64,000 nucleotides of DNA from the human T2T-CHM13v2.0 reference genome, Homo sapiens (GCF_009914755.1 NC_060926.1), one strand, 5' to 3'; numbered from the stretch's first letter, positions 26,657 to 45,438 are shown. Numbers and translations: made by a program. Notes: generated by a model from the sequence alone, not told the origin.

Positions 26657-27373
26657 ATATTGACCGCAATGTAATTTTGAAGGAGTTTGGAGAATATTTC
26701 TTCGAGTTTTACAAAAGGTCAGACTCTGATCATATGCTGATGACCCTAACTAGAAATTTCTACAACTTTATAGAAAACTTGCATGCATTACATATGCATG
26801 CATAGTTAGATGCATATATAGTTCCTTAACTGCATTAGTCAGAGTTCTCCGGAGAAAGAGCACCAGTAATATACATATGGATATATATATATACATTTTT
26901 ATTTATTTTTTTTTTGTGAGACAGAGTCTCGCTCTGTCACCTAGGCATTGGTTCATGAGAAATTGGTTCATGCAATTATGGAGCCTGAGAAGTCCCACAA
27001 TCTGCCATCTGTAAATTGGAGACCCAGGAAAGCCAGTGGTACAATTCAGTCAGAAGGACGGAAAACAGGAGAAATAATTATGTAAATCACGTTCTGAGGG
27101 CCAAGAAGCTGAAATGAGGTGTCCGAGCTCAGCAGAGCAGGGCAAATTTCTCCTTTCTCCACTTTTTCTTTTATTTAGGCTCTCAATTGATCAGATGATG
27201 CCCATATACATGGGAAGAGCAGTCTACTTCAATGAGTCCACTGATTCAAATGCTAATTGCATCTGGAAATACCCTCCCAGATACACTCAAAAACAATGTC
27301 TAATCTGGGCACCCCATGGCCAGTCAAGTTGATACATAAAATTAACCATAACACCTGTCTTTGTCATATTTGG
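26657..27373 (+). pseudogene. sGC-beta-like pseudo-exon A (H-NOX, includes heme-ligand His), split by an MLT2 LTR
   Basis: 26657-26793 reads (D)IDRNVILKEFGEYFFEFYKRSDSDHMLMTLTRNFYNFIENLHALH vs GUCY1B2 [46 protein letters not shown] (ungapped, about 27/46 identical by eye). Acceptor decayed (ttctttatcttaccAT). After the LTR, 27355-27372 reads LSLSYL (cf. LALSYQ), then g/GTGATC. Confidence 0.92.
26831..27353. mobile_element. MLT2B-like ERV-L LTR containing a short Alu fragment (about 26900-26945)
   Basis: tg(c)attagtcagagttctcc start and cagtcaagttgatacataaaattaaccataaca end. Confidence 0.85.
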
Positions 27374-27689
27374 GTGATCAGCCAGCCAAGAAATGACATA
27401 TTTTGAGAGCTTTCAGAGTTGCAGAGTCACTAGAGGGTTAATGGTAATGCAAATACCTTAGCTTTCACATCCTGTCTTTGATAAGAGTTTACGTTTTCAG
27501 CAAATAATCTGTGAAGTGGCTAATTTGCTGGGGGATAATGAGAATAGATAGTTACTCTGAAAATTGCTCTTACGCAATTCTACTTACTTTTTAATGGTGT
27601 CTCTTTTCTTTGTAAGAAGTGCCATATTTTGGGACAACATGGGGAATTTAATCATTAAGTTAAACAATAAACCCTTTAAACTACCTTAA

Positions 27690-27975
27690 TTTCTTTTTTT
27701 TTTTTTAGATGGACTCACTCTGTCACCCAGGCTGTAGTGCAGTGGCACAATATTGGCTCACTGCAGCCTCCGCCTCCCGGGTTCAAGCAATTCTTGTGCC
27801 TCAGCCTTCTGAGTAGTTGGGATTACAGGCATAAGCCACCATGCGTGGCTAATTTTTGTATTTTTAGTAGAGATGGGGTCTCGCCAGGCTGGTCTGGAAC
27901 TCTTGACCTCAGGTAATTCACCCACCTTCGCCTCCCAAAGTGCTGGGATTATAGGCATGAGCCACTGCACCCGGC
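27690..27975 (-). mobile_element. AluS
   Basis: Dimer; TSD aaactaccttaa. Confidence 0.95.
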
Positions 27976-28444
27976 AAACTACCTTAACTTCTAAGAGAGT
28001 CAACAATTCTATTAGTTGAATTATACGTAAGTAAATAAAACCTTGAAACAATGGAAAAACCCTTATACAAAAGGCAAACAATTAGAAAAGACTCAGTACC
28101 CTGGGGCCTAAGTAATATAATTAAAAGCAGGATTTTAAAAAATAAGTTTCTTTCTAAAAGCAGAGAAAGCACCAAGGTGATTGCTTTGTTTCCCACAGCT
28201 TTCAGACCCTGAGTGCATTGGTAAGGTTTTCCTAATTGCTATATTTCTTATATTTTGTAAAATAAAGAAAACACAGATCATTTATCTTTCTAGTATACAA
28301 GAACCATTTTGAAAGGGCCATTTCTCTTGTTTAAATGATAATTATATGTCATAACCTATAGTAAAGGTAGAAAGGAGGCTCACACTCCCAGTGTTTCAGG
28401 AGACAATGGAATAAAACTAGTTAAGATGTCATTGTTAAGACATA

Positions 28445-28780
28445 ATAGTAATCAGTTAAGATGAGGTCATACTAAAGTAGGGTAGGCCTCTAATCCAACA
28501 TGATTGTTGTCCTTACAAAAGGGGGAATTTGGACACGGACAGTCTCATGGGGAGAACACCATGTGAAGATGAAGGCAGAAATCTACAAACCAAGGAGTGT
28601 CAAAGACTGCTAGCAAACCACCCAAAGCTCGGAGAGAGGCATGGAACAGATTCTCCCTCACAGCCCCCAGCAAGAACCAACCCTGGCAACCTCTTGATCT
28701 CAGACTTGTAGTTCTAGAATTGTGAGATAATAAATTTAGTTTGTGGTACTTTGTTATGTCAGCCTGAACAAAGTAATTAT
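28445..28780 (+). mobile_element. MLT1B/C-like LTR
   Basis: gttaagatgaggtcatact, gaacagattctccctcacagccc. Confidence 0.8.
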
Positions 28781-28977
28781 GGTCCTCATTTTATAAGTGA
28801 AGATTCTGAGGCTCATAAAGATAAACTTGTCTGACGTCAAGCAGCCAGGACAGAGCTGGGGCTGGACTCAGGTTACTCCAAACATTGTGTTTTAAACCCC
28901 TGCATCGTTTTCCAAAACTGATCCAAGGACCTCTTGCATAAAAATCACCCGGGATGCTTATTAAAAATGCAGATTCA

Positions 28978-29288
28978 GGCCGGGTGCGGTGGCTCTTGCA
29001 TGTAATCCCAGCGCTTTGGGAGGCCGAGATGGGTGGATCACCTGAAGTCAGTAGTTCGAGACCAGCCTGGTCAACATGGTGAAACCCTGTCTCTACTAAG
29101 AATACAAAAATTAGCCCGGCGTGGTGGCACATGCCTGTAATCCCAGCTGCAAGGGAAACTGAAGCAGAAGAATTGCTTGAACCCACGAGGCAGAGGTTGC
29201 AGTGGGCCGGGATCACACCACTGCATTCCAGTATGGGCAACAGAGCGAGACTTCATCTCAGGGGAAAAAAAAAAAAAAGAAAAAAAAA
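28978..29288 (+). mobile_element. AluS
   Basis: Dimer with A-tail. Confidence 0.95.
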
Positions 29289-30008
29289 GCAGGTTCAGGG
29301 ATTCAACTCAGACCCGCTGAATATGAAACTGGGGAAAGGTGGCAAGAGACTGAATTCTAAAAAAGAAACAACTCTAAATGAAAACTGTTAACACTCATTT
29401 TGCTTCTGAATTAGAGTCCCTCAACCCCCTCACTATGGTCTGCTGAAATTGAGGTGATTCTAGCACTAAATGAGAAATATTTATGTGTTCATCAGTTAGA
29501 ATTTGGGCAAATTTTTGTCTGGACTTCAAATTTTGCTATTTTTTTCCCCCAGTGATGATAATAAAATATACCGTATCTTATCTCCCATAATCAAATTAAA
29601 TCTTTTGAAAATGAAAGTTAAAACTTATAAACATTTTAGAAATGCAAGGGAATATTATGAAGTATCTTTATTCAGATCATCTAATTAACAGAATATGGAG
29701 GAAGATATTACTTCAATGTAATTCCTACCCATTTCTCTTGAAAAATAAACGCTGAGTTATCAGTGGTTTTATTCTGGAAAGCTTTGCTTTGTTTCTACCA
29801 CAACTAATGCTCTGCCTGTGTGGTGGGGCAATTCCTAGCATCCTCCTCTCTGTTGAATCATCTTCTTCTCTTACATGATCATGCATTGTACTTCTATGCA
29901 AGCTTTGCTCATATTTTCCAAGTGTAAGGAGAACCTGATAATGCAGAGGGCTCATTTTCTTGATTATGTCATTGTTGTTGACTCCTTCAGATGGAGAATA
30001 ATTAATGG

Positions 30009-43456: not shown

Positions 43457-44527
43457 TGTGCTAGGCAGAATAATGTACTACCAAAGATTTCCACATCTGA
43501 ATTCCTGAAACCTATGAATATGCTACTTTATGTGACAAAAGGAAATTTGAAGATGTGCTTAAATCTCCTTGAGATAGGGAGATTATTCTGGATTATTTGT
43601 GTGGACTCAGTGTAATCACAAAGGTTCTTAAAAGCAGGAGAGAGAGGCAAAAGGGAGATCAGAATTATGTAATGTAAGACCTCCACCCATTACTGACTTT
43701 GAAGATAGAGGAAGGAGGCTGTGAGTTAAGGAATGTGGATGACTTCTAGAAGCAGGAAAAAGCAAGACAATGAATTCTCCACAGTCTTTATTTATTTTAT
43801 TTTATTTCTTGAGACAGAGTCTCACTCTGTCACCCCAGGCTGGAGTGCAGTGGCACCATCTTGGCTCATTGCAACCTCCTGGGTTCAAGCCATTCTTGTG
43901 CCTCAGCCTCCCAAGTAGCTGGGATTACAGACATCTGCCACCACACCCAGCTAATTTTTTTTATTTTTAGTAGAGACAGGGTTTCACCATGTTGGCCAGG
44001 CTGGTCTTGAACTCCTGACCTCAGGTGATCCACCTGCCTTGGCCTCCCAAAGTGCTGGGATTACAGGTGTGAGCCACCACACCCAGCTACTCTTTATTTA
44101 TTTATTTATTTTGAGACAGAATCTTGGTCTGTTTCCCAGGTTGGAGTGTAGTGGCACAATCTTGGCTCACTGCAACCTTTGCCTCCCAGGCTCAGGCGAT
44201 ACTCCCACCTCAGTCTCCCGGGTAGCTGGGACCACAGACTCACACCACCATACCCAGCTAATTTTTTGTATTTTTTCGTAGCTAAGGAGTTTTGCTATGT
44301 TGCCCAGGTTGGTCTTGAACTACTGGACTCAAGCCGTCAGCCCACCTCAGCCTCCCAAAGCTCCCCGTCTTTAGAAAGGAACGCAACCCTGCCAAAACCT
44401 TGATTTTTGCCAAGGGAAACCTTTGTTGGATTTTTGGCCTTACAGAACAGTAAGATAGTAAATTTGTATTGTTTTAAGCTACTAAGTTTGTGGTGATTTG
44501 TTATGGCAGCAATAGAAACCCAATACA
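43457..44527 (+). mobile_element. MLT1D/E-like LTR interrupted by two antisense Alus (43790-44086, 44093-44360)
   Basis: tgtgctaggcagaataatg start, gcagcaatagaaacccaataca end. Confidence 0.8.
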
Positions 44528-44544
44528 ACAGCAAAATAAATTTT

Positions 44545-44865
44545 TTGGGTGAGAGGGACAGATCCCTCATGAATGGCTCGGTACCCTCCTCACAGTAATG
44601 AGTTAGTTCTCACCCTGAGTTCACACGAGAGCTGGTTGTTTAAAGGCGCCTGGCACTTCCTCCTTGCTCTTTTGCTTCTTCCCTCTCCATGTCGTACCCT
44701 GGCTCTCCTTTTGCCTTCCGCTATGAGTGGAAACTTCCTGAGGCTCTCACCAGAAACCAAAGAGATGTTGGTGCCATGCTTGTACAGCCTGTGGAAACAT
44801 AAGCCAAAATAAACCTGTTTTTTAAATTCATTACCCAGTCTTAGGTATTCCTTTATAGCAATGCA
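44545..44865 (+). mobile_element. MSTB-like LTR
   Basis: gatccctcatgaatggct...cctttatagcaatgcaa. Confidence 0.75.
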
Positions 44866-44869
44866 ATCA

Positions 44870-45330
44870 GATTTATATCATGTAAAACATTTTAACCACC
44901 CTAGAAAGTTCTCTTATGCCTTTTCCCAGTCAATATCACCCATTAGAGGTATCCATTATTCTGACTTCTGTCTTCATAGATTAGTCTCTCCTCTACCTGA
45001 TCTTCTTATAAATAGAATCATACCGTATGCTCTTTTGTATCTGGCTTCTTTCTTTTCACATAATGTTTTTGAAATTCATCTATCAACATCATTTTTATTG
45101 CTATGTGGTATTCCATTGTATGGATATATCACAATTTATTTGTTTGCTCTATTTCTTTGTTTCTAGCTTTGTCTATTACTAATAATGCTCTTTGAACATT
45201 CTTACGCAAGGCTTTTTATGGACACATGCACTTACTTCTCTTGGAGATGTACTAGGCATAGAATTGCTTGGTCATAGATAGGTTTATATTTAGTAAAAAG
45301 TGCCAAGGTTCTTTCAAGTGGTTGTAATAT
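44870..45330 (-). mobile_element. L1ME fragment
   Basis: Antisense L1M 3'UTR motifs. Confidence 0.7.
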
Positions 45331-45335
45331 TGCAG

Positions 45336-45438
45336 AATAATTTTGCAAAGCTTTGACCCAGATGTACAAAATCTTTGTGGAAGGACTTAAAAATGTTCTG
45401 TAGTGGGCTCCCTTCTCTCATGATTATTGATGAAAAGG
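45336..45438 (+). pseudogene. sGC-beta-like pseudo-exon D (start of PAS/H-NOBA)
   Basis: tgcAG|...LQSFDP../KSLWKDLKMFCSGLPSLMIIDEK g|GT vs LMNTFEPIYPERLWIEEKTFCNAFPFHIVFDES; contains a frameshift. Confidence 0.7.

What the first reader, a model, noticed from the sequence alone, without database searches (positions are those of the whole stretch)
26657..45438. Fossil of a lost soluble guanylate cyclase beta-2-like (NO/heme sensor) gene hidden among repeats
Seen: four plus-strand segments in the right order (ILKEFGEYFFEF...FIENLHALH; DGPM/LHHYS/LCCIIAG; RTGKKCH; LWKDLKMFCSGLP..IIDE) separated by multi-kb gaps, with intact or decayed AG/GT ends. Known: these match consecutive H-NOX and PAS segments of sGC beta-2 (GUCY1B2-type). 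Inference: introns make this a former genomic gene, not a retrocopy. About 60% identity in the best exon is too low for GUCY1B2 itself, so it is probably a separate paralog lost long ago and possibly still intact in non-eutherian vertebrates. I cannot tell whether it is already annotated.
Basis: partly seen in the sequence, partly recalled or inferred. Interest (0 to 1): 0.88.

Follow-up and report, generated by a model that had tools for sequence, protein, structure and literature searches.

The report
Relic of lost guanylate cyclase gene
The window holds the decayed, intron-bearing remains of a second "beta-2-type" soluble guanylate cyclase gene that birds, reptiles, amphibians and fishes still have and that no mammal in the lists searched here has, so it is an unlisted ancient gene-loss relic rather than a working element.

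Summary
Seven exon remnants of a soluble guanylate cyclase beta subunit lie colinearly on the + strand from 26.66 to 58.17 kb, with two more marginal pieces. Each remnant is the best match to its exon anywhere on the + strand of the window, and 0-2 of 100 permuted profiles reach its score. Exon borders fall where the introns of human GUCY1B2 (chr13) fall, so this was an intron-bearing gene, not a retrocopy. It is not GUCY1B2. Vertebrates have two old beta-2 paralogs: B2 proper (mammals, coelacanth, lungfish, caecilians, teleosts) and "beta-2-like" or B2L (birds, reptiles, amphibians, sharks, bony fishes). The relic scores higher against B2L in 8 of 8 pieces. A tree places it inside tetrapod B2L (support 99/95), and an AU test rejects grouping it with B2 proper (p = 0.010). 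It carries stops, frameshifts, an Alu inside one exon and lost splice sites, and at least five exons are undetectable. No mammalian B2L protein appeared among the hits listed. The best reading is a unitary pseudogene lost early in mammals. Position next to DOCK10 in other vertebrates is only indirectly supported.

The parts
26657..26799 (+). Remnant of exon 3 (H-NOX domain, includes the ...NLHALH histidine): 47 open codons, IDRNVILKEFGEYFFEFYKRSDSDHMLMTLTRNFYNFIENLHALHMH
   Evidence: Pfam HNOB 33.8 bits, E 3.8e-8. PDB sGC beta-1 residues 63-107. tblastn E 2e-13, 64% identity to swan B2L. HMM 49 bits. Profile score 148 with 0/100 permutations reaching it. Homology starts at the first residue of GUCY1B2 exon 3. 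The expected acceptor AG reads AT at 26655-26656. Single copy in the genome.
30563..30656 (+). Remnant of exon 4 (H-NOX). Read as ELTHFLLVGKSKDGPM / LHHYSMM* / ELCCIIAG, with at least two frameshifts and a stop
   Evidence: Acceptor ...attag| lies directly before the E that aligns with the first residue of GUCY1B2 exon 4 (EMNAPSF...). The remnant ends at the ...IVPG border, where GT now reads GC. Score 45.5, 2/100 permutations reach it.
38351..38478 (+). Remnant of exon 5 (end of H-NOX and start of linker): ...GKNEILKEASRECMNRTGKKCHMELIMWENE, with two in-frame stops upstream
   Evidence: AG at 38349-38350 lies 27 codons before RTGKK, the same count as in the orthologs. Score 42.5, 1/100 permutations reach it. 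This is the weakest of the accepted exons.
45336..45437 (+). Remnant of exon 7 (start of PAS/HNOBA): IILQSFD / PRCTKSLWKDLKMFCSGLPSLMIIDEK, one net frameshift
   Evidence: tblastn E 1e-3. Score 74.7, 0/100 permutations reach it. Acceptor ttgcag| at 45334-45335 is within 1 nt of the GUCY1B2 exon-7 start. A GT lies 1 nt from the expected donor.
48684..48743 (+). Remnant of the middle of exon 8 (PAS/HNOBA): RHPEVISSISEIQRFVNYQY. The first 30 or so codons of the exon are not recognisable
   Evidence: HMM hit. Score 55.4, 0/100 permutations reach it.
48744..49291 (.). Insertion inside exon 8: an antisense Alu flanked by (TA)n, (TG)n and poly-T
   Evidence: Sequence read directly. It overlaps the masked stretch 48735-49231 in the hub table.
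49292..49348 (+). Probable 3' end of exon 8: TERRLMLES / WREATQPKLR, against TRREMMPESWKQRPMLELR in turtle. One frameshift, donor GT lost
   Evidence: It continues the previous piece directly in protein coordinates (turtle 340-362 after 322-339). Homology ends where GUCY1B2 exon 8 ends. The score of 34-40 includes a poly-T artefact (FFFF), so I call it probable only.
49864..49917 (+). Marginal candidate for exon 11 (catalytic domain): G*IPRPVITGLKGVGNFS against GGVPVPVSTHAERVANFA
   Evidence: score 35, and 2 of 60 permutations within the 5.5-kb interval reach it. If real, exons 9 and 10 must have been deleted, because only 516 nt (49349-49864) remain upstream.
54885..55027 (+). Remnant of exon 12 (catalytic domain): IRVGIQGN..LTGVFFEK..RYI / VFEDTVNKESCIKSHRIPSKIQ / SPSTY. 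Two frameshifts and small deletions
   Evidence: tblastn E 1e-3. HMM hit. Score 82.8, 0/100 permutations reach it. Acceptor aaag| in phase 0 and donor CA|GTGAGT in phase 2, as in GUCY1B2 exon 12.
58027..58174 (+). Remnant of exon 13 (end of catalytic domain): *KHTQYKNSEVTERGDILVKEKGRKSCYFLTENLTSTENYLLGKPRWEQ. One TAG, then 48 open codons
   Evidence: tblastn E 7e-9, 54% identity. HMM 24 bits. Score 102.6, 0/100 permutations reach it. Acceptor ttcttag| plus 1 nt restores the homologous frame, matching the phase-2 donor of exon 12.
58332..58352 (+). Possible piece of the last exon (tail motif): VVMKYFD against IAMKYID
   Evidence: score 23, and 7 of 60 permutations reach it, so it is not significant on its own. 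It lies about 160 nt after exon 13, where the tail exon is expected. An L1-like repeat follows from about 58.41 kb.

Best explanation
The stretch from 26.66 to 58.35 kb, + strand, is a unitary pseudogene. It is what remains in humans of the vertebrate gene that NCBI calls 'guanylate cyclase soluble subunit beta-2-like' (B2L here).

In the species that keep it, B2L encodes a full sGC beta-type subunit: a heme-binding H-NOX sensor, a PAS/HNOBA domain, a coiled coil, a class III cyclase catalytic domain, and a C-terminal Cys-x-x-Leu box.

B2L and GUCY1B2 are two old paralogs. Each clade holds coelacanth, lungfish, caecilians and teleosts, and sharks are in B2L, so the split predates the shark/bony-vertebrate split if the tree is rooted on the outgroup. 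An origin in the two early vertebrate genome duplications is my inference.

In the lineage to mammals B2L lost function and has since drifted. Seven of about 14 coding exons are still recognisable at the ancestral intron positions. They carry stops, frameshifts, decayed splice sites and an Alu insertion. The others (1, 2, 6, 9, 10) are deleted or beyond recognition. It makes no protein today.

Shown: homology, colinearity, intron positions, clade membership, disablement. Inferred: the time of loss (before the radiation of living mammals) and that this is the ancestral locus.
For: Homology and order. Pfam HNOB passes above cut-off. tblastn gives E 2e-13, 7e-9, 1e-3 and 1e-3 for four exons. The ortholog HMM hits only the + strand and only colinearly. 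My chain score on the + strand was 559, against 289-317 in three controls (reversed profile, minus strand, both). All 7 per-exon best hits are colinear, with 0-2 of 100 permutations reaching each.

Introns. The borders of e3, e4, e5, e7, e8 (3' end), e12 and e13 coincide, to within 0-1 nt or one codon, with the exon borders of human GUCY1B2 mapped. AG is intact at 5 of 6 acceptors, and the e12/e13 phases are consistent.

Clade. Identity over 266 aligned residues falls with distance from amniote B2L: birds 54%, turtle 53%, amphibians 49-52%, fish B2L 46-49%, B2 proper 42-48%, beta-1-like 27-29%. The B2L profile beats the B2 profile in 8 of 8 pieces, 695 against 601 in total. In the IQ-TREE run, relic plus tetrapod B2L has support 99/95 and B2L plus relic 96/94. 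The AU test rejects relic plus B2 proper (delta lnL 11.8, p = 0.0104).

Unitary. A whole-genome protein search finds beta-2-type exons only at chr13 (GUCY1B2) and here. The e3 DNA is single-copy.

Loss in mammals. No mammal is among the best 120 hits to swan B2L, although teleosts at 57-66% identity are listed. The platypus, marsupial and eutherian proteins I fetched all fall in B2 proper.

Decay. About 54% identity corresponds to at least 0.25-0.3 neutral substitutions per site in my simulation.
Against: Adjacency of B2L to CUL3/DOCK10 in other vertebrates was not tested, because no vertebrate genome other than this one is held. Only chromosome-level hints exist. The guinea fowl B2L protein sits on a 97.5-Mb contig and the chicken protein on a 23.7-Mb contig. 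Guinea fowl DOCK10 is on chromosome 4, which equals chicken chromosomes 9 plus 4q (PMC6579635, passages).

The relic is a long branch (1.55 changes per column), its sister position to sauropsids is unresolved (72/0), and long rows can be misplaced.

Exons e4 and e5 are individually weak (2/100 and 1/100 permutations). Pfam does not recognise the small PAS and cyclase pieces on their own.

The B2L gene structure was not seen directly. Intron positions were compared with the paralog GUCY1B2.

Absence of mammalian B2L rests on truncated lists (best 120 of 7950) of predicted proteins.

The whole-genome search ran with a stricter first look and may miss weak matches.
Confidence: 0.88

Rival explanations
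1. It is an old, decayed DNA-level duplicate of GUCY1B2 itself (the chr13 gene), copied to chr2 within the mammalian lineage.
For: GUCY1B2 is the closest intact-looking relative in the human genome. Intron positions are shared with it. The relic is 42-48% identical to B2-proper proteins, which is not far below the 46-54% seen for B2L.
Against: The B2L profile wins in 8 of 8 exon pieces. Diagnostic residues are B2L-type: FFEF.KRS..DH, N.Y.F, C.GLP, TERG, TEN, compared with the sequences. The tree puts the relic in tetrapod B2L with support 99/95. The AU test rejects a clade with B2 proper at p = 0.0104.
Confidence: 0.04
2. It is a B2L-type relic, but not at the ancestral locus. A copy was moved or duplicated here and the original was deleted elsewhere.
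For: Adjacency of B2L to CUL3/DOCK10 in non-mammals was not tested with these tools.
Against: The introns are kept, which speaks against retroposition. No second B2L-like locus is found in the genome. The contig sizes of chicken and guinea fowl B2L track the chromosome that carries DOCK10 in guinea fowl (PMC6579635). From memory, DOCK10/DOCK9, IRS1/IRS2 and COL4A3-4/COL4A1-2 link 2q36 and chr13 as duplicated regions, which fits B2L and GUCY1B2 as a pair from genome duplication.
Confidence: 0.06
3. The matches are chance similarity or derive from repeats.
For: Many 20-30 point segments in my chain are noise. Several lie in Alus or other repeats: 27352, 27915, 34709, 50410-51091.
Against: E-values are 2e-13 and 7e-9. 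Pfam HNOB is above cut-off. The minus-strand and permuted controls score far lower. Seven exons are colinear with matched splice positions. The e3 DNA is single-copy.
Confidence: 0.01
4. It is a processed pseudogene or a still-coding unannotated gene.
For: Two pieces keep 47-48 open codons. A predicted lncRNA, LOC105373910, runs on the same strand from 38796 (hub table).
Against: The pieces are spread over 31.5 kb with intron-like gaps at conserved positions. There are multiple stops and frameshifts, an Alu in exon 8, and the coiled-coil and most catalytic exons are undetectable. The lncRNA exons (38796-38968, 53337-53474) overlap no remnant.
Confidence: 0.01

Closest known systems
Non-mammalian 'guanylate cyclase soluble subunit beta-2-like' (B2L), e.g. 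swan P0001, turtle P0021, crocodile P0022, newt P0046, shark P0060
   Same: Same clade by tree and AU test. Same domain order: HNOB, HNOBA, Guanylate_cyc. Highest identity, 53-54% over 266 residues.
   Different: Those are intact 650-800 aa proteins. The human copy has stops, frameshifts, lost splice sites, an Alu insertion, and at least five exons missing or unrecognisable.
Human GUCY1B2 (chr13, itself a pseudogene in humans; functional Gucy1b2 in rodents)
   Same: Paralog with the same exon-intron plan and the same domain architecture. Both are dead in humans.
   Different: Different chromosome and different ancient clade. GUCY1B2 is barely decayed: its exons are 61-82% identical to turtle B2L and score 119-476 against rat GUCY1B2, with one frameshift seen in exon 3. 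The chr2 relic is deeply eroded.
GUCY1B1 (sGC beta-1, solved structures 6JT0, 5MNW)
   Same: The H-NOX exon aligns to residues 63-107 of beta-1, including the ...ALH.H motif.
   Different: Only 27-29% identity to beta-1-like proteins over the relic columns. It is an outgroup in the tree.
Ancient gene-loss relics in mammalian genomes (e.g. the vitellogenin remnants; recalled, not read here) and the 'loss relics' of PMC10195156 (abstract and passages seen)
   Same: Same kind of object: exon fossils of a gene lost in the mammalian lineage and kept by other vertebrates, found in non-coding DNA.
   Different: A different gene family. This case was not found in the main text of that paper or of PMC3296468. 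Their supplements could not be opened.

Membership tests
Soluble guanylate cyclase beta subunit (HNOB - HNOBA - coiled coil - Guanylate_cyc) | H-NOX (Pfam HNOB) domain | tested here: met
   The e3 remnant scores 33.8 bits against a cut-off of 25.5, E 3.8e-8. It aligns to beta-1 residues 63-107.
Soluble guanylate cyclase beta subunit (HNOB - HNOBA - coiled coil - Guanylate_cyc) | Heme-ligating histidine and the Y-x-S-x-R heme-propionate motif (positions recalled from beta-1 literature) | tested here: inconclusive
   The His of ...NLHALH is kept at 26791-26793. The motif region reads LHHYSMM*, where orthologs have LHYYSDRR: Tyr and Ser are kept, Arg is replaced and followed by a stop. This is what one expects in a dead gene.
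Soluble guanylate cyclase beta subunit (HNOB - HNOBA - coiled coil - Guanylate_cyc) | PAS/HNOBA and class III cyclase catalytic domains downstream, in that order | tested here: met
   The pieces align to turtle 259-290 and 322-362 (HNOBA spans 272-461) and to 567-663 (Guanylate_cyc spans 468-649). Pfam alone does not call these short pieces. The coiled-coil exon was not found.
B2L clade (as opposed to GUCY1B2 proper) | Groups with B2L in a tree that contains both paralogs from the same species | tested here: met
   Support is 99/95 for tetrapod B2L plus relic and 96/94 for B2L plus relic. The AU test against B2 proper gives p = 0.0104. The B2L profile is better in 8 of 8 pieces.
Unitary pseudogene (gene-loss relic) | Disabling lesions | tested here: met
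   In-frame stops in e4, e5 and e13. Frameshifts in e4, e7, e8 and e12. An Alu in e8. The acceptor of e3 and the donors of e4 and e8 are lost. e1, e2, e6, e9 and e10 are undetectable.
Unitary pseudogene (gene-loss relic) | No functional copy of the same gene elsewhere in the genome | tested here: met
   The genome-wide protein search finds beta-2-type exons only on chr13 (the other paralog) and here (stricter first look, so weak hits could be missed). The e3 DNA is single-copy.
Unitary pseudogene (gene-loss relic) | Lies at the position of the functional ortholog in other species | not testable with these tools
   Only chromosome-level hints are available: contig sizes and the guinea fowl DOCK10 chromosome in PMC6579635.
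Processed (retro) pseudogene | Contiguous cDNA copy without introns | tested here: not met
   The exon remnants are spread over 31.5 kb with gaps at the GUCY1B2 intron positions.

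The most novel reading that the evidence does not exclude
The gene labelled GUCY1B2 or 'beta-2(-like)' in birds, reptiles, frogs and salamanders is not the ortholog of mammalian GUCY1B2. It is its ancient sister, and the two were lost reciprocally: mammals kept the chr13 gene and left this relic at 2q36, while sauropsids kept B2L and have no B2-proper protein in the lists seen. Humans, whose GUCY1B2 is also broken, would then carry the wrecks of both beta-2-type gas-sensing cyclases. 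Comparisons between species of 'Gucy1b2' function, such as low-oxygen or NO sensing in olfactory neurons, may be comparing different genes.
Probability: 0.6. Interest if true: 0.6.

Novelty: new member of a known kind. Interest (0 to 1): 0.5.

Why it matters
It adds a third beta-type sGC locus to the human genome's history, and RefSeq lists nothing there. It shows that the vertebrate "beta-2" family is really two old genes with complementary survival, which bears on orthology calls. NCBI names both genes "beta-2" or "beta-2-like", and a zebrafish-mouse olfactory study treated gucy1b2/Gucy1b2 as an ortholog pair (PMC4480006, passages seen). Which fish paralog that study used is not settled here.

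It also gives a datable example of exon fossils surviving a long neutral drift, and a concrete locus for testing when and why mammals dropped one gas-sensing cyclase.

It is not a working element, and gene-loss relics are a known kind of object, so the interest is moderate.

Tried and rejected
Missing exons. Exons 1, 2, 6, the 5' part of 8, 9 and 10 gave best scores no higher than permuted profiles (17/60 to 52/60 reach them). Adding 30 kb upstream of the window did not help for e1 and e2 (23/60 and 30/60).

Chain segments rejected as chance.
- HLSLSY at 27352 lies inside a repeat.
- NSPTF at 27915 and RRGLT... at 34709 lie in Alu-like sequence.
- The segments between 50410 and 51091 look like Alu translations.
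- IVSLAGKLL at 42386-42428 has no donor and overlaps residues already accounted for by e7.
- NFTSSFC at 63092 is not followed by a Cys-x-x-Leu stop and lies 4.7 kb too far downstream.

My first reading of e4 as running on to the GT at 30674 (IIAGAADCE read as the start of e5) was dropped once the GUCY1B2 exon map showed the border at ...IVPG.

The FFFF at the start of the second e8 piece is poly-T.

Pfam on the short PAS and cyclase pieces gave nothing.

Over-long B2L gene models (7 proteins) showed no domain from a neighbouring gene that could have revealed synteny.

The representative search returned no separate mammalian cluster and was of little use for naming.

Literature. Searches found no paper on a chr2 relic or on two beta-2 paralogs. 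The main texts of PMC3296468 and PMC10195156 do not mention guanylate cyclase, CUL3 or DOCK10. The supplements of PMC3296468, which list genes lost in early mammals, could not be opened and may bear on novelty. PMC11835228 gave no chromosome lengths.

Full report
**What is there.** The first one (26659-26799) is a bona fide H-NOX fragment. Pfam HNOB scores 33.8 bits against a curated cut-off of 25.5, and the fragment aligns to residues 63-107 of solved human and insect sGC beta-1 chains.

A word-index search with this 52-residue piece returned two swan proteins named 'guanylate cyclase soluble subunit beta-2-like' at 68% identity.

An HMM built from 20 full-length orthologs hit only the + strand, in colinear order, and added 48684-48743. 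The only minus-strand hit was low-complexity at E = 1.

**Controls.** I wrote a frameshift-tolerant protein-profile-to-DNA chain aligner. With the ortholog profile the + strand scores 559. The reversed profile scores 289, the minus strand 317, and the minus strand with reversed profile 303. With a stiffer jump penalty the figures are 459 against 184-196.

Taken exon by exon, the best hit on the + strand of the window for e3, e4, e5, e7, e8, e12 and e13 ends at 26799, 30658, 38475, 45437, 48743, 55025 and 58162. That order is perfectly colinear. Of 100 permuted profiles, 0, 2, 1, 0, 0, 0 and 0 reach the observed score. e4 and e5 are therefore individually weak and lean on their position.

Many 20-30 point chain segments are noise and were discarded (see Tried and rejected).

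**Gene structure.** The window's own assembly can be searched. The turtle ortholog finds human GUCY1B2 on chr13 exon by exon (61-82% identity), then GUCY1B1 and GUCY1A1 on chr4, GUCY1A2 on chr11, more distant cyclases, and the window itself.

I fetched 60 kb of chr13 and mapped 14 coding exons with rat GUCY1B2 as query. The relic pieces correspond to exons 3, 4, 5, 7, 8, 12 and 13, and their ends fall at the same places.

- **e3.** Homology starts at the first residue of the exon. The expected AG now reads AT.
- **e4.** It starts right after ...attag| and stops at ...IIAG (orthologs ...IVPG), where GT now reads GC.
- **e5.** It has an AG 27 codons before RTGKK, the same count as the orthologs.
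- **e7.** It starts after ttgcag|, within 1 nt of the expected place. A GT lies 1 nt from the expected donor.
- **e8.** It is split by an antisense Alu with (TA)n, (TG)n and poly-T (48744-49291). It resumes at 49292 and ends at ...KLR, as GUCY1B2 exon 8 does.
- **e12.** It has aaag| in phase 0 and CA|GTGAGT in phase 2.
- **e13.** It starts after ttcttag|, and one extra base restores the homologous frame.

This is an intron-bearing genomic gene, not a retrocopy. A caveat applies: the comparison is with the paralog, because no B2L genomic sequence is held.

**Which gene.** A search with the swan protein listed 120 best hits of 7950. They were birds, crocodilians, turtles, squamates, tuatara, frogs, salamanders, caecilians, lungfish, coelacanth, sharks and rays, and ray-finned fishes. 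None was a mammal, although teleosts at 57-66% identity made the list.

A search with a human chr13 exon listed mammalian GUCY1B2 proteins (eutherians, marsupials, platypus). It also listed a second gene in coelacanth, lungfish, caecilians and teleosts. No sauropsid appeared except one B2L protein already known.

Several species have both genes on different contigs: Megalops, Chanos, Alosa, Pangasianodon, Salminus, Rhinatrema and Microcaecilia. In Hoplias both sit on contigs of equal length, and Latimeria and Protopterus also have both. So there are two old paralogs, B2 proper and B2L.

To avoid bias I aligned the relic with a profile that weights both paralogs equally. This gave 266 aligned residues. 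Identity is 54% to birds (144/266), 53% to turtle, 51.5-52% to lizards, crocodile and caecilian, 49-50% to frogs and salamanders, 46-49% to fish B2L, 42-48% to B2 proper, 29-33% to invertebrate relatives and 27-29% to beta-1-like proteins. On the same alignment path the B2L profile beats the B2 profile in 8 of 8 pieces (695 against 601; beta-1-like 284).

A careful IQ-TREE run (55 rows by 268 columns) gives B2 proper 89/80, B2L plus relic 96/94 and tetrapod B2L plus relic 99/95. The relic comes out as unresolved sister of sauropsids (72/0), which is where a mammalian ortholog belongs. Its end branch is long, at 1.55. Forcing the relic into one clade with the 24 B2-proper rows costs 11.8 log-likelihood units and is rejected by the AU test (p = 0.0104).

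**State of the gene.**
- In-frame stops occur in e4, e5 and at the start of e13.
- Frameshifts occur in e4, e7, e8 and e12.
- There are small deletions in e12 and an Alu in e8.
- Three splice sites are lost.
- An L1-like repeat follows soon after the tail motif.
- Exons 1, 2, 6, 9 and 10 cannot be found, nor can exons 1 and 2 in the 30 kb upstream of the window.
- A marginal candidate for exon 11 lies at 49864-49917 (2/60 permutations reach it). If it is real, exons 9 and 10 were deleted.
- The e3 DNA has no second copy in the genome.

**Age (inference).** I simulated neutral substitutions on GUCY1B2 coding sequence. Amino-acid identity comes out at 65% for 0.2 substitutions per site, 53-55% for 0.3 and 43-46% for 0.4. 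The observed 54% to living birds is somewhat higher to the relic's own ancestor, and it is biased upward because only recognisable exons are counted. This suggests at least about 0.25-0.3 substitutions per site.

From memory, the human lineage has accumulated roughly 0.15-0.2 neutral substitutions per site since the eutherian ancestor. That points to a loss before the eutherian radiation. It is consistent with the absence of B2L proteins from marsupials and monotremes. This is a rough estimate, not a date.

**Locus (partly inferred).** Adjacency to CUL3/DOCK10 in other vertebrates could not be tested. Chicken B2L is on a 23.7-Mb contig and guinea fowl B2L on a 97.5-Mb contig. PMC6579635 (passages seen) states that guinea fowl chromosome 4 equals chicken chromosomes 9 plus 4q and lists guinea fowl DOCK10 on chromosome 4. 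In turkey, DOCK10 is on chromosome 11 (PMC11787592, passages).

From memory, chicken chromosome 9 is about 24 Mb and carries the 2q36 genes. Also from memory, 2q36 and chr13 share duplicated gene pairs (DOCK10/DOCK9, IRS1/IRS2, COL4A3-4/COL4A1-2). That would make B2L and GUCY1B2 a pair from the early vertebrate genome duplications.

**What the ancestral gene did (inference from family).** Intact B2L proteins have HNOB 2-162, HNOBA 272-461 and Guanylate_cyc 468-649. They end in Cys-x-x-Leu, as do B2-proper proteins (sequences). PMC4480006 (passages) cites work showing that rodent Gucy1b2 is activated directly by NO, and shows its expression in a subset of olfactory neurons in mouse and zebrafish. 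B2L was most likely a heme-based gas-regulated cyclase of the same type. The human relic does nothing of the kind today.

**Known or new.** RefSeq lists no gene or pseudogene over the remnants, according to the hub table. Five literature searches found nothing on this relic or on two beta-2 paralogs. The main texts of two gene-loss surveys (PMC3296468, PMC10195156) do not mention it, and their supplements could not be read. The kind of object, a unitary pseudogene left by an old lineage-specific loss, is well known. This is a new member of that kind.

Noticed in passing
L013 / G000:C13:50248969-50249123 (human GUCY1B2 exon 3): The human chr13 GUCY1B2 copy shows a one-codon gap plus a frameshift in exon 3 (FGEY-FQF/LKMSGYD against rat [15 protein letters not shown]). 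Its tail exon is poorly alignable. Otherwise its exons are nearly intact. So humans carry two dead beta-2-type genes of very different ages.
   Followed up: partly
protein lists: The two paralogs survive in complementary fashion. No mammal is among the 120 best B2L hits. No bird, reptile, frog, salamander or shark is among the 120 best hits to a GUCY1B2 exon, apart from one B2L protein. NCBI names are mixed: chicken, anole, green turtle and Xenopus B2L are called 'beta-2'.
   Followed up: partly
window 38796-38968 and 53337-53474 (LOC105373910, hub table): A predicted lncRNA runs on the same strand as the relic. It starts 318 nt after the e5 remnant, inside what was intron 5. Its exons overlap none of the remnants. 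Whether it derives from the lost gene's transcription unit is unknown.
   Followed up: no
window 58410-58800: An L1-like repeat follows the possible tail motif and probably truncated the last exon. No Cys-x-x-Leu terminus could be found.
   Followed up: partly
rows P0270-P0275: Short proteins (330-385 aa) 98-99% identical to the human GUCY1B2 exon come from 1-2 kb contigs of a source without names. One human cDNA-derived entry (B4DKW8) has the same length. This suggests that the human pseudogene is transcribed and that human-like reads occur in other collections.
   Followed up: no
P0112 (Acipenser sinensis, flagged UNVERIFIED_CONTAM by its source): It scores 337 bits against a 111-residue query, which is more than a single copy can give. 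The model probably contains the exon twice.
   Followed up: no
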